From IMG/VR virus record IMGVR_UViG_3300044805_000038, positions 1-40,454 of that record: DNA of 40,454 nucleotides; one strand, given 5' to 3'. The first letter of the stretch is position 1, and every line of letters starts with the position of its first letter. The notes under the pieces were generated by a model. The model saw nothing but the letters and a program-made list of their open reading frames with translations. It had not been told where the DNA came from and made no database searches. This stretch comes from a virus (lineage: Duplodnaviria; Caudoviricetes). Below, piece after piece: positions 7,732 to 18,514 of the stretch. Made by a program: the position numbers and the translations under genes.

Positions 7732-8658
7732 ATGTCGGACCCTCTGCGCGATTACCTAAACCAGATCGGCAAAATCCCGCTGCTAACCGCTGCCGAGGAG
7801 ATTGAGCTGGGTCATGCCGTGCAGCGGATGGTGGCACTCAGATCAAAGCAGGAACACAGCAGAGAGGAGCTGCGGCACATCAAAGCAGGCATCCGGGCAA
7901 AAAAACGGATGATCCAAGGGAACCTGCGGCTGGTGATTGGCATCGCGTCAAAGTACAAGCACCTTGCAAACCGCGTCACTCTGCACGACCTAGTGCAGGA
8001 AGGCAATATTGGTTTGATCCGTGCGGTTGAGCTGTTTGATCCAGAGCGCGGCTACAAGTTTTCGACGTATGCGTACTGGTGGATCCGTCAGGGCATCATG
8101 CGTTCAATTCAAGTACAGGACCGGATCATTAAGTTGCCGTCAGGCGCTAGCGACATCCTGCGCAAGGTCAAAACTTACATGGTTGAGCATCAGGACCTTT
8201 ACGGTGAGCCGCCTTCCATTGAGCAATGCGCTGCACATGCTGGCGTTGCACCTAATACCCTACGGGATTACATGCATAGCGCACAGGATGCTGTGAGCCT
8301 TGACGCAAAAGCAAGAACGCAAAATGAGGATGGCAGCTCAATCCTTGATTTAATAGCTGCCGAAAATGAAAAGCCTGAGGATGATTTAATTTTGACAACC
8401 AAGGTGCAAGCCGTTCAACAAGCACTTTCGTATATGTGCGAAAACAGCAAAATGATTCTGAGTATGCGTTATGGGCTAGACGGTGAGGAACCTTGCTCCA
8501 AGCGTGAGATTGCCCGAAGGATAGGTATCGCGCAGGACACTACCGCTAGGTTGCTTGTTAACGCAGAGCGGCAACTAAGGCTGATCCTAAAAGAGGGACC
8601 GCCGGGAAAGTATCAACCACAGAAACACAGCTCCAGCTTGATCTGGGGTTGGGGGTAA
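7732..8658 (+). CDS. RpoD-family (cyanobacterial group-2-like) RNA polymerase sigma factor
   Basis: YLNQIGKIPLLTAAEEIEL, NLRLV, DLVQEGNIGLIRAVELFDPERGYKFSTYAYWWIRQ; no region 1.1. Confidence 0.93.
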   Translation: MSDPLRDYLNQIGKIPLLTAAEEIELGHAVQRMVALRSKQEHSREELRHIKAGIRAKKRMIQGNLRLVIGIASKYKHLANRVTLHDLVQEGNIGLIRAVELFDPERGYKFSTYAYWWIRQGIMRSIQVQDRIIKLPSGASDILRKVKTYMVEHQDLYGEPPSIEQCAAHAGVAPNTLRDYMHSAQDAVSLDAKARTQNEDGSSILDLIAAENEKPEDDLILTTKVQAVQQALSYMCENSKMILSMRYGLDGEEPCSKREIARRIGIAQDTTARLLVNAERQLRLILKEGPPGKYQPQKHSSSLIWGWG

Positions 8659-12448: not shown

Positions 12449-12917
12449 TCACCGGCTTGAAGAGCGACACCAACCGCTTGAACAATGCTGTCGCACCAAG
12501 CGTGGCGGCAACACTGATCACACTGGTGGTTGCTGCGGCGCTCAAAATCTCCGCCTTTGGCACAGGGATTTGTATTGCGGTGCCCGGTAATGTGATTGTG
12601 GTTGTCTCTGCGCTAGTTGGTTGTGCAGGAGCCTCAATCGTTTTGGCTGGTTCTTTTTCGGGCGACGGCTCCCACGCTGGCGGGGGTTGGATTGCTATTG
12701 GCGGTATTGATGCCGGTGTTATGGCTAATGTCGCAGCAGGTTTCTCAGGAGGTTGCTCCTGGCTCGCGGGTGGTATGCCTACGTCGTTGACCGGGGCGTA
12801 GGGATACACCATCGGCGTATAAGAAGGCACCACCGCCCGAGGTAATTCCAGCCATGGCGCTGGGATCTCAGGCGGATTAGCAAGTGGCAGTGCCGGCAGC
12901 AGGACCGGCGGTTGCAT
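12327..12917 (-). CDS. Pro-rich membrane-anchored protein
   Basis: Pro-rich N-terminus, IQIPVPKAEILSAAATTSVISVAATL hydrophobic helix, basic C-terminus. Confidence 0.65.
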   Translation of the reverse strand: MQPPVLLPALPLANPPEIPAPWLELPRAVVPSYTPMVYPYAPVNDVGIPPASQEQPPEKPAATLAITPASIPPIAIQPPPAWEPSPEKEPAKTIEAPAQPTSAETTTITLPGTAIQIPVPKAEILSAAATTSVISVAATLGATALFKRLVSLFKPVISVAVKRLQKMRGKPVKSWARQRLAQRHRRSLQTAIPAQK

Positions 12918-13054
12918 TAACCCTTACCTTGGCCGCGCATCTTTTTCCTGCCGTGATTAGGCAAGCTGTGTTGACCTTGGCCTTGCCGAGATTTTTTCGG
13001 CTTGCCTGGTACGTGCTCGATGCGAGCGGTGCCGGTCTTCGACTTCACTGCCAT
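12917..13054 (-). CDS. Small basic protein (45 aa)
   Basis: Manual: MAVKSKTGTARIEHVPGKPKKSRQGQGQHSLPNHGRKKMRGQGKG; TAATG coupling to the next gene. Confidence 0.65.
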   Translation of the reverse strand: MAVKSKTGTARIEHVPGKPKKSRQGQGQHSLPNHGRKKMRGQGKG

Positions 13055-13365
13055 GGCACACCAGCAGCCTGCGTCGGATGCCGCTGTTCATCGAGCTGGT
13101 GCTGCAGGGCGCCCTCGATCTCGGTCACCTTCTCAGCGCCGAAGTTGTCCTTCACCCAGCCGATCACCATCTCCTCGGTGAGATCCGCAAAAGGGATCAG
13201 CTTGTCGGGGCGCTCGAAGCCGACAGATCCATAGGCCGAGCTGGCATAGGTGCCATCTTCAGCCGAGAGCGTCCAGTGTGCCGTCAGAACGAATCCATCG
13301 GCGGTCTCCCGCTCAAGATTCGCGATCCGCCAGGTGAAGGTGGTGCTAGGGGTAGCGTTGGGCAT
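13045..13365 (-). CDS. Conserved phage protein usually found next to tail fibres (possible fibre assembly factor)
   Basis: FTWRIANLERETADGFV..AHW..IPFADLTEEMVIGWVK..GVPW pattern. Confidence 0.65.
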   Translation of the reverse strand: MPNATPSTTFTWRIANLERETADGFVLTAHWTLSAEDGTYASSAYGSVGFERPDKLIPFADLTEEMVIGWVKDNFGAEKVTEIEGALQHQLDEQRHPTQAAGVPWQ

Positions 13366-13392
13366 GGTAATGCGAGCCGTGGCGTCAATCTA

Positions 13393-14247
13393 TCAAATCT
13401 CCGGCAGTTCGTACTCCTTTGTGGTATTGCAATAATGCTTAAAAATTACCTCGCTGGTGTTGCCAGCCCAAGCCGCCACCTGAGGCACAGGGATGCCAGC
13501 CTCGATCCAATGGCTGATCGCAGTGTGTCTGCAGTCATACGGACGGTAGTGGTGTGAGATGAGGCCGACCTGATGCAGTGGTTGCAGCTTCTTGCGGAAG
13601 TAACTCTGAAATGCCAGCCGATCCCAAGGGAACAGATATTCGGACTCTTGTGGCAATGCGTCGAGGATGGCCTGGCACTTGCCGTTCAATGGCACCCATC
13701 GCTTTTTGTTGGTCTTGGTGCTGTCCTTCAAGCCATGGGTAAGCGTCCAGTTCTGATGCACCAAGATCTTGTTGTCTTTAATATCAACCCATCGAAGTGC
13801 GCGGACCTCTCCGGTTCGCATGGCTGTCTGCAACATGAACTCGGTATAGGCCGACCAGTTGACGGTGCGATAGGTCAGCTTTGCCTCTAGGGCAGCCAGC
13901 ACCAAGCCGATCTCGTTGCGCGGGATGACGATGATCTCCTCGTCGCGTTGAGGTGCCTTGGGCATCTTGAAGCTGGCAAGTGGATTCCGCTCCAAATAGC
14001 CAACGTCTTCTTGTGCCGCCCACTTGTACATGGTCTTCGTGTACATCGCAACGCGACGTGAAGACAGCACAGGCTTCTGCCCCAATACCCAGATCATGAC
14101 CTGGCGTGCCTGTTGCAGGTCTTGCACTGGGCAGCGGCCTAGCCACTTGGTTACTTGGCGGTAATCAGATGTGAGACTGGTTGGGCAAAGCGAGATAGAA
14201 CGCTCCGTGAGGAAGGCGTTCCATAACTCGCTGACCGTTAATGCCAC
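13393..14247 (-). CDS. Tyrosine recombinase (284 aa; core-binding plus catalytic domains, no arm-binding domain)
   Basis: TAMRTGEVRALRW (Arg), STKT (Lys), YDCRHT (HxxR variant), WAGNT, KHY (Tyr). Confidence 0.9.
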   Translation of the reverse strand: MALTVSELWNAFLTERSISLCPTSLTSDYRQVTKWLGRCPVQDLQQARQVMIWVLGQKPVLSSRRVAMYTKTMYKWAAQEDVGYLERNPLASFKMPKAPQRDEEIIVIPRNEIGLVLAALEAKLTYRTVNWSAYTEFMLQTAMRTGEVRALRWVDIKDNKILVHQNWTLTHGLKDSTKTNKKRWVPLNGKCQAILDALPQESEYLFPWDRLAFQSYFRKKLQPLHQVGLISHHYRPYDCRHTAISHWIEAGIPVPQVAAWAGNTSEVIFKHYCNTTKEYELPEI

Positions 14248-14366
14248 TAGGTAACTATTTGGGGTGGCAAGTCAAGGCACTGCCGGATCTCCGCCTTGCG
14301 CTGTTCGATGCGCTCCCGGCGCTCTGGGGCAAAATCTTTGGTGAGTTCCGAGAAGGAGCGCGTCAT
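14247..14366 (-). CDS. 39-aa ORF resembling the N-terminus of HigA-type antitoxins, without the HTH
   Basis: Manual: MTRSFSELTKDFAPERRERIEQRKAEIRQCLDLPPQIVT; stop overlaps the recombinase GTG. Confidence 0.5.
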   Translation of the reverse strand: MTRSFSELTKDFAPERRERIEQRKAEIRQCLDLPPQIVT

Positions 14367-14369
14367 GGG

Positions 14370-16843
14370 TAGGGAAGGTGAATACTGGGCTTTGCTAGGT
14401 CATGCAATACCCGGATTCGCACCCATCTTGTTCTTCTATCCATTCTGCGAACAGTCCTAGCTGATGAGGAATGGCAACATCAATCGGCTTGCAGCGGCCA
14501 CTGATAAAAACATGGTCCTTGCCGATGGCTTCGCGCTTGGCATTGAGGGTCCGCTCCAGCCTCACCACTTGCTCAAACAACTCGGGCTTCTCGCGCCTAA
14601 GGGTGATCCATTGATCGGTGGTCTTGTACGGGCAAAACCAACAGGATGACTTTGGCGGCTGGGGCAAACCAGCTTCGCGCACGACTTGCAAGCAATCGCT
14701 ACGGCTTAGCCCCAGTTCGATCAACGGATACGCGGACGCATACCCATCGGATTCCCTTGATGGCGTAGCTCGGTGTGGCTCATCCGTGCTGATGCCTTTA
14801 CCCAAGACACAGCCTGGCGCATTGGCCTTGATCCATTTAGCAATAGGCTTGATCTTGAACTCAACAGTGCAGTTTCTGTTGCCAGGTGCGCCGTTGCTCA
14901 TGCGAACGGGAATGTCGATAGAGCGGACTGGACGGTGCAGTTCTTCGTACAAATCCACGACGGTTCCGTCGCGGCGTTTGCGCTGAACATCAACCCAACT
15001 AATCCCGTGAGCATCCGCAAAGGGCTTGAGGACATCAGCCACGTATTGAATAGTGTCTGGCGATTCGGATCGCTCGCCGACGTTGGCAAAAACAAAAGTG
15101 CGGTAGGGGATGGTCCCACTGGCGGCCAGCACAAGGCAAGCCGTTGATTGAACACCACCACCGCAAGAAAAGACGAAGTTATCCACAGTAGGGAGTAGGG
15201 CTAAGAGGTCTAGGCGATACCAGCATCAGCGAGACGCTGTTCGAGAACCTCAATCCGCTCCATGGCTTCCTGCAGCGCCTTGACTGCCTTCATGTAGAGG
15301 ATGGACTGGTTAATGCCTTTGGTGACTTCGCCAGTTTCGTTGCCGTCTTTATCACGGTCCGGCGTATCAAAAACAAGACCGGGGCAAACCTGTTCCAGCT
15401 CCTGGGCAATGGGACCAATTTGACGATGAGTTTCGTGACCAGTCTCCGCCCTGAAATTCCAGTTGCGAATCTGAATTGCTTTTAGATCATCCCACTGCGA
15501 ACTTGCATCGACAATATTCTCTTTCAGCTTTTGGTCGGAAAGAGTTGTGTAACTGCCGTTAGTATTCTGGACGTTTCCATTTGTGTAGACAATAAATACA
15601 TCGGTGCCATCAGTTGTTGTCGTTGCGCTTCTACGACCTACAAAAAGTGCGTCTGATGTACCTGCGCCTGTGGATGATGCCGACGTCAGTCCATTTCCTG
15701 CAGCATAGAAAAACGCACGGCCTGCATTATTAATTCGCTGCGCCTCAGTAGGTGATGCCGACCCGTCGCGTGTAACGGAGAACACTAGGCGGCCCGGCAT
15801 GTCGTTAGTGCCGGGGGTGCCGTCTACGGCTGCGTTGATACTCGCTGCGCGTACAAATTTAGTTCCGTCTGCGCCATTAAATGTTACAGAACCGATTGTG
15901 CTGCCATTTATAAGCGCGGCATAGTCGGACGAATGGCCCTGTCGGCAAAGCGCAATATCGGCAACTCTCTCGTTAACTGTGTTAGAAGAACTGATTACAG
16001 CCAGGCCACCGTATGCTCCGTTGTTATCGGTAACTTTAATCTGTTGTCCTTGTGACCAGTTACTGCCAAATCTGTTGTCAGGAATGTTGTACCAACTAGA
16101 CGTGCCAACTAAGAGGCGTCCCGAGCTGTCGATGCGGGCGCGTTCGTTTGCGAGCCCGTTTGTTGCAAACGCAAGGTACTCACCACCTCCAACCGCCAAA
16201 AGTGTGCCGCTACCGCTGGCGTAACCGGGGGCGACGTAGAAGTTTGACAGCGTGCCATCTGTTACTTGAAGGCGTTGCGTGGGGCTCGTAGTGCCAATCC
16301 CTACGTTGCCTGCCGAGGTGACAACCAGCTTGTCGGAGTAGCTGCTTCCAGGCGTCTGAATTGAAAACACGCCATTTGTATTACCGATAAACGTTTGGCT
16401 GGACGAGTCTTTTAGCGCGACAAAGACGCCGGTTGTACCTGTGCGCTCAAATACTGTTGGTGTGCTAGCCGTTCCAGACACGTGAAGTGTATTACTAGGG
16501 CTACTAGTCCCCAGACCTAAGCGGCCACTGGAGTCCAGGCGCATGCGCTCGCTTTCTGACCCTGCATTTGTAGTAATAAACCTCAACGCACCAGAATTAT
16601 CTGCTCCAGCACGTTCGGCACCTATATAAGCAATGCGGTTTGTGGCTTGCCAAAACGCCAATCTGCCTACATCGCTGGTAGTTGTTCTATTGCCTTCAAT
16701 GTTTACTGCACCAATTAAGGCACCTTTGAAAGTGCCTTGCGTGACGTTTGCATCGGACCATTTGTCAGGAGAGGAGCTTCCAACTCCAACGTTTCCACTC
16801 GCATCAACAAACAACCGCCCAGTGCCATTAGTTGAGATGGCTA
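14370..16843. repeat. Series of TAG-N9-CTA inverted-repeat sites (candidate recombinase core sites)
   Basis: Perfect sites at 15189-15203, 16097-16111, 16289-16303, 16505-16519 and 16829-16843; one-mismatch sites at 14370-14384 and 15773-15787. Confidence 0.65.
14395..15186 (-). CDS. PAPS-reductase-like adenine nucleotide alpha-hydrolase (Cys-rich)
   Basis: PP-loop-like SCGGGVQS, RNCTVEFKIKPI, YPLIE, PPKSSCWFCPY, C-terminal CESGYC. Confidence 0.8.
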   Translation of the reverse strand: MDNFVFSCGGGVQSTACLVLAASGTIPYRTFVFANVGERSESPDTIQYVADVLKPFADAHGISWVDVQRKRRDGTVVDLYEELHRPVRSIDIPVRMSNGAPGNRNCTVEFKIKPIAKWIKANAPGCVLGKGISTDEPHRATPSRESDGYASAYPLIELGLSRSDCLQVVREAGLPQPPKSSCWFCPYKTTDQWITLRREKPELFEQVVRLERTLNAKREAIGKDHVFISGRCKPIDVAIPHQLGLFAEWIEEQDGCESGYCMT

Positions 16844-17408
16844 CTTGGTCTGCACCGGGAGAATAAATACCAGTATTTGCATCGCCGGTGAAGGTCAGTG
16901 TGGGCGCTGCAGCAGATCCAAGGGGATAGCTAAAACGCTCAGAGCTGGTCCACGCATCGGTGGAATCAACCCAGTTGATGGTTTTATCGGTCGTACCTTT
17001 CAGTGTGATGCCGCCACCGTCTGCGGTTACATCGGTAGGGGTAGTTACATCGCCAAGGATAATATTTTTGTCTTCAATAACAAGGTTGGTGGTGTTGATA
17101 TTGGTGGTCGTACCGTTAACAGTCAGGTCGCCTGCAATCGTTACCGCGCCAGCAGAATCAATCAGCAGACGCTGCGTGCCGCCGGTGGTCACCGCAACCT
17201 GATCGGCGCCGGGGGAATAGATGCCGGTATTGGGGTCACCGTCGAACGCGATGCCGGGCAGGGCAGCCGTGCCGAGGCTGGCGTTCTTCATCACGTTGGC
17301 GATGCTGACCTTCTTGGTCACGTCGCTGGTGACATCAACAATCGGCAGCACATCCGTGTTGACCGGATCTGTGTAAGCCGTCAGGTCAGTGATCTTGGTG
17401 GTGGCCAT
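15210..17408 (-). CDS. Long modular tail fibre with C-terminal intramolecular chaperone (peptidase S74-like)
   Basis: Repeats NTGIYSPGADQVA and R(L/I)DSSGRL/GNVGIGT; SDQKLKENI..GPIAQELEQVCPGLV..coiled coil. Confidence 0.88.
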   Translation of the reverse strand: MATTKITDLTAYTDPVNTDVLPIVDVTSDVTKKVSIANVMKNASLGTAALPGIAFDGDPNTGIYSPGADQVAVTTGGTQRLLIDSAGAVTIAGDLTVNGTTTNINTTNLVIEDKNIILGDVTTPTDVTADGGGITLKGTTDKTINWVDSTDAWTSSERFSYPLGSAAAPTLTFTGDANTGIYSPGADQVAISTNGTGRLFVDASGNVGVGSSSPDKWSDANVTQGTFKGALIGAVNIEGNRTTTSDVGRLAFWQATNRIAYIGAERAGADNSGALRFITTNAGSESERMRLDSSGRLGLGTSSPSNTLHVSGTASTPTVFERTGTTGVFVALKDSSSQTFIGNTNGVFSIQTPGSSYSDKLVVTSAGNVGIGTTSPTQRLQVTDGTLSNFYVAPGYASGSGTLLAVGGGEYLAFATNGLANERARIDSSGRLLVGTSSWYNIPDNRFGSNWSQGQQIKVTDNNGAYGGLAVISSSNTVNERVADIALCRQGHSSDYAALINGSTIGSVTFNGADGTKFVRAASINAAVDGTPGTNDMPGRLVFSVTRDGSASPTEAQRINNAGRAFFYAAGNGLTSASSTGAGTSDALFVGRRSATTTTDGTDVFIVYTNGNVQNTNGSYTTLSDQKLKENIVDASSQWDDLKAIQIRNWNFRAETGHETHRQIGPIAQELEQVCPGLVFDTPDRDKDGNETGEVTKGINQSILYMKAVKALQEAMERIEVLEQRLADAGIA

Positions 17409-17443
17409 CGTTGATGCTCCGGTAGGTTGAGTTTAGGCGCGGC

Positions 17444-18514
17444 TCAAGTCTTAATACAAGCCAGCAGCGCGATGTTTCTGGGTCGTGCCTCGGTGTCACC
17501 GCTGTTGTTGACCGTGATGCCGGTGGTTACGGTCGTCGTTGCCCGAGGTGATGTGCCTTGGTTGGCGGCCACGGCGGTGTTGCCAGAAGTGCCAGTGTTC
17601 CAAGCGCCGTTGTTGTACTCAACGGTGTGCGCGTGACCCGGATCGGTAATGCCGTGCGTGTGAGCCAAGTTGGCGCTGGCTTGCGCGGAGCCGAACGTTC
17701 GACCCGTGTCAATGCCGCGTCCGTCGTCCCAGCCACGGGCAAACTCACCACGCAGATCTGGCACGTTGAAGGTGGTGGAGCCATCACCCGAGCCAAATGT
17801 AGTGCCAATGGCGCTAAACAATGTGGCGTAAGTTGTGCGGCTGATTGCTGCACCGTTGGCCTTCAAGTAGCCGGTTGGTGCGGTATTGCGTGCGCTCCAG
17901 ATGATGGTGCCAGCAGGAGTCATGTCCTGTGGCGTGATGGATGCAACCTGCGTATCGACATAGCCCTTGTTGGCGGCCATGTTTGTCGTGCTGGGGTTGC
18001 CCACCAGCGTCAGGTTGCCGGTCATCGTCCCACCAGCTTTGGCTAGGTAGGTGCTGGCTGCAGTGGTGATCTGTAGGTAACGGGCGTCCGCAAAGGTTTG
18101 GTCAATGCCGTCAGGGTCAACGCGCACCCAGTTGGTGCCGTCCCACATCTTCAGTTCGTCTGGCGTCTGCGCTGTGTCTTGCCACAACTGACCCAGTGCC
18201 GGACTGCTAGGTGCCGTGCCTGATGGGCTGGTGATGATCGACGCGCCGGGCTGGAACGAGACGATGGTGAACGTGGCGCCATTCCAAACCTTGAGCAACG
18301 GCGGGTTGCTGCTGGTATCGACCCAAAGTTGACCGTTGGCAGGGGTGGAAGGCTGCGTCGGTCCAACGCTTGTGCCAAGCAAACCCAGTGCCAGTGCAAG
18401 GTTGTTGGCTGTGATGCGTCGAGTCTGGGAGCCGCTGACGCTGGAAAATGGCAGGAGATCCGCGCTGGCAATCGCTGTTGCGGCGGGTAACTGGGAGATC
18501 CGTAAGCCAGCCAT
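17444..18514 (-). CDS. Tail fibre with tail-collar domain
   Basis: GQLWVDTS repeats; PAGTII..APTGYLKANGAAISRTTYATLFSAIGTTFGSGDGSTTFNVPDLRGEFARG; EARPRNIALLACIK. Confidence 0.88.
   Translation of the reverse strand: MAGLRISQLPAATAIASADLLPFSSVSGSQTRRITANNLALALGLLGTSVGPTQPSTPANGQLWVDTSSNPPLLKVWNGATFTIVSFQPGASIITSPSGTAPSSPALGQLWQDTAQTPDELKMWDGTNWVRVDPDGIDQTFADARYLQITTAASTYLAKAGGTMTGNLTLVGNPSTTNMAANKGYVDTQVASITPQDMTPAGTIIWSARNTAPTGYLKANGAAISRTTYATLFSAIGTTFGSGDGSTTFNVPDLRGEFARGWDDGRGIDTGRTFGSAQASANLAHTHGITDPGHAHTVEYNNGAWNTGTSGNTAVAANQGTSPRATTTVTTGITVNNSGDTEARPRNIALLACIKT

What the first reader, a model, noticed from the sequence alone, without database searches (positions are those of the whole stretch)
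14247..15212. Integron-like cassette array between the tail fibre and the recombinase
Seen (coding strand): fibre stop, then TTAGCCCTACTCCCTAC-T-GTG (PAPS-reductase-like gene), its stop, then GTATTCACCTTCCCTAC-CC-ATG (39-aa ORF), then ATAGTTACCTAGTG at the recombinase start. Both intergenic sites keep the 15-bp geometry of the fibre sites and share a TCCCTAC right end. Each passenger start codon lies 2-3 nt after the site, leaving no room for its own promoter. Neither passenger is a virion gene. Inference: these are promoterless cassettes inserted at recombinase sites and expressed from the fibre transcript, functionally like an integron but without attC hairpins. Only two cassettes are present, so support from this genome alone is limited.
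Basis: partly seen in the sequence, partly recalled or inferred. Interest (0 to 1): 0.8.

Follow-up and report, generated by a model that had tools for sequence, protein, structure and literature searches.

The report
Recombinase site ladder in cyanophage fibres
This lake phage's tail-fibre gene and the small genes behind it are divided by an ordered row of short inverted-repeat DNA sites, each with its own central code, at which related phages have swapped pieces; the neighbouring recombinase likely drives these swaps between co-infecting phages, which would make phage mosaicism a programmed process rather than an accident.

Summary
Partly confirmed, and larger than reported. The fibre-end site and the site before the 39-aa ORF are real; the motif quoted at the recombinase start is not one. 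They are rungs of a ladder of seven co-oriented 13-7-13 dyad sites in the window, five in frame inside the tail fibre. In relatives each 7-bp spacer occurs once per ladder (1 of 80 repeats one), in fixed order. Of 67 homology boundaries, 37 fall in sites (4.5 expected), and flank co-segregation puts the crossover in the spacer. Slot content varies widely, and the same spacers occur in cultured sipho- and T7-like Synechococcus phages. This is not an integron: no hairpin signal, no stacking, no circle seen. It fits slot-wise exchange between genomes at matching spacers, like Acinetobacter pdif modules. The arm-less tyrosine recombinase is the likely enzyme: 41 of 45 relatives at 58% identity or more flank such a ladder, in three gene settings. 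But most sampled ladders lack it (21 of 29), so it would act in trans; a host enzyme or homologous recombination is not excluded. The scan met this on other DNA: most notes called the enzyme a passenger, one agrees. No paper describing it was found.

The parts
15210..17408 (-). Tail fibre with S74 chaperone (732 aa), built of modules between in-frame sites F1-F5
   Evidence: Pfam PF13884; PHROG tail fibre; repeat matches trimeric fibre 8ond, E 7e-14
16820..16852 (-). Site F1, spacer CATCTCA, in frame (VAISTN)
16496..16528 (-). Site F2, spacer TCTGGGG, in frame (LGLGTS)
16280..16312 (-). Site F3, spacer GATTGGC, in frame (VGIGTT)
16088..16120 (-). Site F4, spacer TGGCACG, in frame (LVGTSS)
15764..15796 (-). 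Site F5, spacer GTTCTCC, in frame (LVFSVT), right arm degenerate
15180..15212 (-).
   Evidence: cassette joined to other fibre ends here in runs X9 and X14
14395..15186 (-). Passenger: PAPS-reductase-like protein (263 aa) filling slot A to C (site B absent)
   Evidence: phrog_424; weak PDB hit PptA 21fy, E 8e-4; 0 of 75 relatives lie beside this fibre
14361..14393 (-).
   Evidence: TAG form and another upstream passenger seen in runs; window and L001 are alike from here on and unrelated upstream
14247..14366 (-). Passenger: 39-aa ORF; its first 27 or so residues are shared with 38- to 100-aa ORFs of relatives, mostly right after site C
   Evidence: no family hit
14256..14270 (-). Degenerate site-like junction (TTGC CACCCCA AATA) where recombinase-bearing and recombinase-free forms part
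   Evidence: L198 and loose ends at 14260-14263 in runs X9, X10, X14
13393..14247 (-). Tyrosine recombinase, core-binding plus catalytic domains, no arm-binding domain (284 aa)
   Evidence: PF00589; R144, K178, Y237, R240, H241, N263, Y272 invariant in 44 sequences; model pLDDT 89 matches lambda Int 75-356; median pN/pS 0.11 over 40 relatives
13045..13365 (-). DUF7936 gene, the usual right-hand neighbour of the ladder with or without the recombinase
   Evidence: PF25590

Best explanation
The interval is the tail end of an ordered ladder of 33-bp dyad sites with different 7-bp spacers, at which fibre modules and passenger genes have been exchanged between phage genomes, and the adjacent arm-less tyrosine recombinase likely catalyses these exchanges between co-infecting phages. 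Shown: 13-bp inverted arms (consensus CAGGCCNNGTAGT / ACTACNNGGCCTG), one copy of each spacer per ladder, fixed order, in-frame placement in the fibre, exchange points inside the spacer, sharing across phage families. Inferred from general tyrosine-recombinase chemistry: strands are exchanged across the 7-bp spacer, so only identical spacers recombine well. Rungs of one genome would therefore not delete each other, while the same rung on two genomes would cross over; one crossover swaps a whole side, two swap one slot. Inferred: the recombinase gene is itself optional at the ladder's end and serves recombinase-free phages in trans; the pay-off is reassortment of fibre modules (host range, untested); new passengers such as the PAPS-like gene enter rarely from the ordinary phage gene pool by a route not established here.
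For: Spacing spectrum: TAG-N9-CTA 152 against 4-43 for other spacings in the 2.5 kb upstream of the recombinase, flat in three control zones. Outer arms, not used for detection, give the same dyad consensus on the left and right of fibre and passenger sites, and cross-profiles score positive on average only at offset 0. Motifs found by amino acids alone carry both TAG and CTA in 118 of 174 cases, against codon shares of 0.20-0.34 and 0 of 13 in Pelagibacter and Roseobacter phage fibres. Order: 1060 of 1081 site pairs follow one order; exact spacer twice in 1 of 80 ladders. Boundaries: 37 of 67 in sites, 4.5 expected. In 31 pairs with identical left flank, core mismatches lie at positions 10-14 only; in 82 pairs with identical right flank they lie at 1-4 (34) and 11 (2). 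Shared slot alleles have a different neighbour in 40 of 116 comparisons. Enzyme link: ladder on one side in 21 of 21 recombinase loci at 78% identity or more and 20 of 24 at 58-78%, background 6 sites in 592 kb. The family also flanks ladders with the same arms but other spacers in two other virion-gene arrays, and a sister clade sits between mirror-image fibre-like genes. It lacks the arm-binding domain of its closest longer relatives; no conserved non-coding flank other than the ladder site was found.
Against: No activity was measured. 21 of 29 ladder loci with enough downstream DNA lack the recombinase beside the ladder. Five such records, three complete, have no tyrosine recombinase at all (positive control), and 4 of 5 cultured ladder phages likewise. 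4 of 24 recombinase loci at 58-78% and 3 of 3 below 58% with long flanks show no ladder. Ordinary passenger families also occur in more than one ladder setting, so residence at a ladder end does not prove catalysis. 30 of 67 boundaries lie outside sites. Pairs are not independent events, sites were called with at most one spacer mismatch, and the order was read from the same data. Co-infection and any effect of the modules on host range were not tested.
Confidence: 0.68

Rival explanations
1. The ladder is a real site-specific system, but the enzyme is another tyrosine recombinase, for instance a host XerC-like protein; the phage gene is cargo.
For: Most sampled ladders lack the gene. Ladders are kept in marine and estuarine phages, while the S-LBS1 paper reports this integrase type as rare in marine viromes (PMC6157547, passages). 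The closest known system, pdif, runs on the host's XerCD.
Against: An arm-less, intact, conserved recombinase family sits at ladder ends in three gene settings and two orientations, with setting clustered on its tree (5 changes against 28 shuffled; quick tree only). An ordinary passenger shows the opposite pattern (0 of 75 PAPS-like relatives beside this fibre). Host genomes could not be searched for the arms.
Confidence: 0.13
2. The motifs are conserved junctions (stop-codon linkers and frozen codons of structural loops) used by ordinary or relaxed homologous recombination, as for T-even gp38 motifs and PeSLs; no site-specific enzyme is involved.
For: The fibre motifs are also protein repeats. 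In 44 of 63 passenger segments the last ORF stops at the TAG of the next site. Ladders persist without the gene. Most earlier scan notes read it so.
Against: Same 13-bp dyad in coding and non-coding contexts across some 15 unrelated spacers. TAG is out of frame in the fibre and is not the stop codon at the window's two passenger sites. Bases directly beside the spacer travel with their own flank. Fibres with the same protein motifs in other phages lack the spelling.
Confidence: 0.12
3. One reading: promoterless cassettes excise as circles and insert at recombinase sites, integron-like.
For: Variable cargo bounded by sites, starts close behind the site, empty forms in relatives. Near-identical spacers (CATTCCC, CATTACC, CATTCAC, CATTCCT) sometimes lie in tandem, so occasional mismatched events may add or remove a slot.
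Against: Flanking spacers differ; exact repeats in 1 of 80 ladders; cargo confined to slots; own arms no more complementary than re-dealt arms, 5.89 against 5.93 pairs; no IntI model hit; no circle or deletion joint in 8 runs (contigs cannot prove absence).
Confidence: 0.05
4. The recombinase is a lysogeny integrase that happens to lie here, as proposed for S-LBS1.
For: Annotated so in S-LBS1 (81% identical); derived from arm-bearing integrases. Arm-less integrases of temperate phages exist (mentioned in PMC6109161).
Against: The S-LBS1 authors found no evidence of integration. Their proposed att motif is in 0 of 475 loci. No conserved attP-like flank. The genome scan gave 4 loci, none in a record titled as a cyanobacterium (finds close relatives only).
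Confidence: 0.02

Closest known systems
Acinetobacter pdif/xrs modules (PMC11705084, abstract and passages read)
   Same: Several tyrosine-recombinase sites with different central regions flank variable genes; modules are not excised; sites with matching central regions recombine between molecules.
   Different: There the enzyme is host XerCD, the carriers are plasmids and flanking sites are often inverted. Here the sites are co-oriented in fixed order in phages, have a 7-bp spacer, five lie in frame inside a fibre gene, and a candidate enzyme of their own lies beside them.
Rin shufflon of Bifidobacterium prophages (PMC6109161, passages) and R64 Rci/sfx shufflon (PMC11852207, passages)
   Same: Tyrosine recombinase beside an adhesin gene, with crossover sites inside the coding sequence; Rin lacks the arm-binding domain; sfx has a 7-bp core between 12-bp arms.
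   Different: Shufflons invert stored alternative tips between sites of one kind in one molecule. Here there are no inverted stored tips in the window, every site has another core, arms are symmetric, and alternatives lie in other genomes.
Integrons (IntI, attI, attC; features recalled)
   Same: Tyrosine recombinase beside an array of unrelated small ORFs, many starting right behind a site.
   Different: No IntI hit, no hairpin signal, fixed slots instead of stacking at one site, recombinase optional and co-directional here.
PeSL cassettes (PMC2839356, abstract) and gp38 glycine-rich motifs (PMC3157838, passages) of T4-type phages
   Same: Short conserved elements at which phage modules and adhesin segments are shuffled.
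   Different: Those are repeats or protein motifs with no dedicated site-specific enzyme in the parts read; here the elements are dyads with distinct spacers, and the crossover maps to the spacer.
Integrase A12 of Synechococcus phage S-LBS1 (PMC6157547, passages)
   Same: 81% identical, directly behind a fibre that carries a six-site ladder.
   Different: Published as a sign of lysogeny; the ladder is not mentioned in the passages read, and no integration was found.

Membership tests
Integron | IntI-type integrase | tested here: not met
   NCBIfam gives only weak XerC/XerD matches, no integron-integrase model; best folds are Tn1549 and lambda Int
Integron | attC-like single-strand hairpin sites | tested here: not met
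   Sites are 33 bp; own arms pair no better than re-dealt arms, 809 of 1000 shuffles as high
Integron | Cassettes stack at one attI site in free order | tested here: not met
   Fixed order 1060 of 1081; slot confinement 150 of 160
Integron | Excised circular cassettes | tested here: inconclusive
   No such joint in 8 runs, all assembled contigs
Integron | Variable small ORFs bounded by sites beside a tyrosine recombinase | tested here: met
Shufflon (Rci, Rin) | Tyrosine recombinase beside an adhesin gene with sites inside it | tested here: met
Shufflon (Rci, Rin) | Repeated same-core sites in inverted orientation with stored alternative tips | tested here: not met
   Spacers read in one direction, each once per ladder; no alternative tips in the window
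pdif/xrs modules | Multiple sites with different central regions flanking variable genes | tested here: met
pdif/xrs modules | Exchange between molecules at matching central regions | tested here: inconclusive
   Breakpoints and co-segregation fit; no reaction observed
pdif/xrs modules | dif-like XerC and XerD arms, host enzyme | not testable with these tools
   No cyanobacterial genome handle was obtainable; by recall the arms do not resemble enteric dif
Lysogeny integrase | N-terminal arm-binding domain | tested here: not met
   Absent; present in the closest longer relatives P0138, P0139
Lysogeny integrase | Conserved attP beside the gene and prophages in hosts | tested here: inconclusive
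   None found; the genome scan reaches close relatives only
Tyrosine recombinase superfamily | Fold and catalytic residues | tested here: met
   PF00589 above cut-off; invariant R, K, R, Y with Tyr and Asn at the two usual His positions; fold

The most novel reading that the evidence does not exclude
Synechococcus phages of different families share a natural multi-slot cassette-exchange network: a phage-encoded recombinase, carried by a minority and working in trans, reassorts tail-fibre domains and accessory genes between co-infecting genomes through an ordered code of orthogonal 7-bp spacers, and the same arms organise ladders in at least three virion-gene arrays.
Probability: 0.55. Interest if true: 0.92.

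Novelty: new variant of a known kind. Interest (0 to 1): 0.8.

Why it matters
Phage mosaicism and tail-fibre module swapping are usually put down to homologous or illegitimate recombination (recalled; see also PMC3157838). A dedicated enzyme with an ordered set of orthogonal sites would be a programmed mechanism for it, shared across sipho- and T7-like phages of an abundant primary producer. It can be tested directly: cultured phages carry the ladder (S-LBS1, S-CBP3, S-CBP4, S-H1, 7B11-B, in part S-RIP1). It would reinterpret the S-LBS1-type 'integrase', now read as a lysogeny marker. It would also offer a compact recombinase with some 15 or more natural spacer variants for cassette exchange.

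Tried and rejected
Integron reading: rejected. Third site as quoted: rejected. Hairpin covariation between arms: none. Circle or empty-site joints: none in 8 runs, contigs only, so no proof of absence. Sequence search of the PDB with the recombinase found nothing; DUF7936 gave no meaningful PDB hit. Rfam found nothing in three relatives, including the conserved leader. No tRNA gene in the window and no sigma-70 promoter match in 12900-17600. Host genomes could not be searched through 'relatives'. The 7 TAG-N9-CTA matches in pelagiphage HTVC168P show no ladder arms on inspection and were set aside. The first site-anchored test was too coarse and was replaced. A core-only consensus for the second ladder gave a weak outer-arm signal, probably diluted by chance matches, so its arms rest on profile scores. 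The careful tree did not finish; only the quick tree is cited. Of 76 passenger ORFs, 56 were scanned: 11 hit phrog_32006 (unknown), 1 an HNH nuclease, 1 a DNA methyltransferase, 1 another unknown family, 42 nothing. Supplements of the cited papers were not read; those of PMC6157547 may bear on the att claim.
Full report
Setting. The window is a complete 40,454-base virus record with direct terminal repeats. It encodes terminase, portal, capsid, tape measure, lysozyme and a sigma-70 factor. Its closest cultured match at this locus is Synechococcus phage S-LBS1, so a siphovirus-like cyanophage is inferred. On the minus strand lie a collar fibre, the S74 fibre (15210-17408), a 263-aa PAPS-reductase-like ORF, a 39-aa ORF, a tyrosine recombinase (13393-14247) and DUF7936.

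The observation. Site A (core 15189-15203) is TAG-N9-CTA. The second site (14370-14384) is TAT-N9-CTA in the window, and contigs in all four runs laid show the base that restores TAG. The string quoted at the recombinase start is TAG-N4-CTA and is not a site. The real junction there is a degenerate site at 14256-14270: L198 and contigs in runs X9, X10 and X14 leave the window's sequence at about this point, and in L198 and X14 the sequence runs straight into the DUF7936 leader with no recombinase gene. The fibre holds four exact and one degenerate site. Four exact sites were never reached in 20000 synonymous shuffles (mean 0.26).

Relatives reveal a ladder. A scan with the recombinase gave 105 relatives, of which the best 80 were kept. 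In the 2.5 kb upstream of the gene, TAG-N9-CTA occurs 152 times against 4-43 for other spacings; three control zones are flat. The sites fall into types by their 7-bp spacer: F1 CATCTCA, F2 TCTGGGG, F3 GATTGGC, F4 TGGCACG, F5 GTTCTCC inside the fibre, A CCTACTC at its end, B CATTCCC and C CACCTTC between passengers, with alternatives (H, G, E, D and others) in other lineages. Over 103 non-redundant chains, pooled from these loci, a pattern scan for site B and cultured phages, 1060 of 1081 site pairs follow one order. The order was read from the data, and a few two-site chains in that set are chance. One of 80 ladders with three or more sites repeats an exact spacer. The window has F1-F5, A and C.

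The sites are dyads. Pooled over types the consensus is CAGGCCNNGTAGT, 7 nt, ACTACNNGGCCTG. The outer nine bases, not used for detection, give nearly the same consensus on the left and, reverse-complemented, on the right, separately for fibre and passenger sites; cross-profiles are positive on average only at offset 0 (site C alone scores negative on its right arm). Fibre motifs found by amino acids alone have both TAG and CTA in 118 of 174 cases, where the codon shares in the same genes are 0.20-0.34; 0 of 13 in Pelagibacter and Roseobacter phage fibres; 14 of 42 in eight cultured Synechococcus phages without the gene beside the fibre. A site's own arms pair no better than re-dealt arms, which argues for protein recognition of double-stranded arms rather than a hairpin.

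Exchange happens at the sites. Slots are highly variable: 50 alleles in 53 F3-F4 segments, 45 in 54 F4-F5, 24 in 37 A-B, 29 in 49 B-C. Similar 5' ends follow the same site type in 150 of 160 pairs, and shared alleles have a different neighbour in 40 of 116 comparisons. Of 67 true homology boundaries inside ladders, 37 lie within a 33-bp site, 4.5 expected; 30 do not. Where the left flank is identical (31 pairs) core mismatches occur only at positions 10-14; where the right flank is identical (82 pairs) they occur at 1-4 (34) and at 11 (2). The spacer is positions 4-10, so the crossover maps to it (pairs are not independent, and at most one spacer mismatch was allowed). For the window itself: L001 is alike from site C onward and unrelated upstream; runs X4, X8 and X9 show the L001-type passenger joined at C; and in X9 and X14 the PAPS-like cassette continues into other sequence from site A. 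No circle or A-to-C deletion joint appeared in these 8 runs of contigs.

Cargo. The PAPS-like gene is common in viral contigs, but 0 of 75 relatives lie beside this fibre and none is flanked by the sites; it was captured from the ordinary gene pool (inference). Passenger segments hold 0 to 6 ORFs. In 35 of 63 the first start is within 12 nt of the core, and in 44 of 63 the last ORF ends at the next site's TAG. One slot holds a tRNA-Arg gene. A conserved promoter-like leader occurs in 15 A- or H-slot contexts but not in the window.

Spread. The same spacers occur in S-LBS1 and S-H1, in the T7-like S-CBP3, S-CBP4 and 7B11-B, in part in S-RIP1, and as one degenerate site in the 206-kb RN05-S; S-SBP1 shows no ladder.

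Which enzyme? The recombinase has only core-binding and catalytic domains (model pLDDT 89; matches lambda Int 75-356 and Tn1549 Int 82-397). Its closest longer relatives carry an arm-binding domain. The catalytic residues are invariant in 44 sequences and median pN/pS is 0.11. Among relatives with 3 kb on both sides, a ladder lies on one side in 21 of 21 at 78% identity or more, 20 of 24 at 58-78% and 0 of 3 below; the background is 6 sites in 592 kb. The settings differ: the S74 fibre upstream; a second large virion-like gene with its own spacers, ending convergently at the recombinase stop; and arrays of paralogous virion-like genes. A sister clade at 44-47% sits between mirror-image fibre-like genes and chaperones, with no match to these arms. 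Against this: 21 of 29 ladder loci from the site-B scan lack the gene beside the ladder; five records, three complete, lack any tyrosine recombinase; so do four of five cultured ladder phages. The gene is therefore optional and would have to act in trans. A host enzyme could not be tested.

Mechanism. Most likely (0.68): the recombinase exchanges strands across the 7-bp spacer, so matching rungs on two co-infecting genomes recombine while rungs within one genome do not. Site anatomy and exchange points are shown; the enzyme's role, the spacer rule, co-infection and the benefit are inferred. Rivals: another, perhaps host, enzyme (0.13); homologous recombination at conserved junctions (0.12); integron-like circles (0.05); lysogeny integrase (0.02).

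Comparison. It works most like Acinetobacter pdif/xrs modules, which are not excised but recombine between plasmids at matching central regions (PMC11705084, abstract and passages; review passages PMC9771954). It shares enzyme type and in-gene sites with the Rin and Rci shufflons (PMC6109161, PMC11852207, passages), which invert stored tips instead. It fails the integron tests. The S-LBS1 paper treats the enzyme as a lysogeny integrase and reports no integration (PMC6157547, passages). Six searches of the held library for such a phage system (listings only) showed no description of it; subscription journals are largely outside that library. Earlier scan notes on other genomes saw parts of this. 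Most called the enzyme a passenger; one unreviewed note reached the same reading and supplied the Rin lead. My reading was recorded before seeing them; their objections prompted the symmetry and setting tests.

Verdict. The ladder and site-precise exchange are well supported; the enzyme is likely but unproven. New variant of a known kind; interest 0.8.

Noticed in passing
L281:1-5055; also L334, L335, L336, L338: A sister clade of the arm-less recombinase (44-47% identical) sits between mirror-image arrays of paralogous fibre-like genes and tail assembly chaperones in 40% GC contigs; looks like an inversion locus with another junction motif.
   Followed up: partly
L458, L423, L401, L430, L373, L441 (downstream of the recombinase, opposite strand): A second ladder with the same arms and other spacers inside an 800-1050 aa virion-like gene and its passengers, ending at the recombinase stop.
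   Followed up: partly
L360, L345, L354 (upstream of the recombinase): A third setting: arrays of paralogous 260-290 aa virion-like genes with ladder-type sites at or near gene boundaries.
   Followed up: partly
L010:7290-7420 and 14 similar contexts: Conserved leader of about 60 nt with a promoter-like stretch and an apparent hairpin ahead of small ORFs in slot A or H; no Rfam match.
   Followed up: partly
L003:7897-7970; L231:3920-3993: A tRNA-Arg(ACG) gene is the cargo of slot A, closed by site C in one phage and site B in the other.
   Followed up: partly
window 14395-15186: The PAPS-reductase-like passenger has a weak PDB hit to PptA (21fy, E 8e-4). In several relatives it precedes an ORF of the same start as the DNA-methyltransferase-like cargo in slot A of L023. 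A DNA-modification role is a lead only.
   Followed up: no
window 15210-17408: The fibre repeat around sites F2 and F3 matches solved trimeric fibres named bd2133 and 'cell wall surface anchor family protein' (8ond, 8oml, 8ojn); that these are Bdellovibrio adhesin fibres is recalled.
   Followed up: no
L369, L374, L282: More distant recombinase relatives (47-55%) lie near a polymerase-like gene, in two cases beside an ORF that reads like a serine recombinase, with no ladder (labels from reading the sequence, not from a family scan).
   Followed up: no
L260, L261, L262: Close relatives of the recombinase (79-93%) lie on short contigs of genome bins titled Hyphomonadaceae, Methylacidiphilales and Ignavibacteria; probably misbinned phage contigs.
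   Followed up: no
window 7732-8658: Phage-encoded sigma-70 factor.
   Followed up: no
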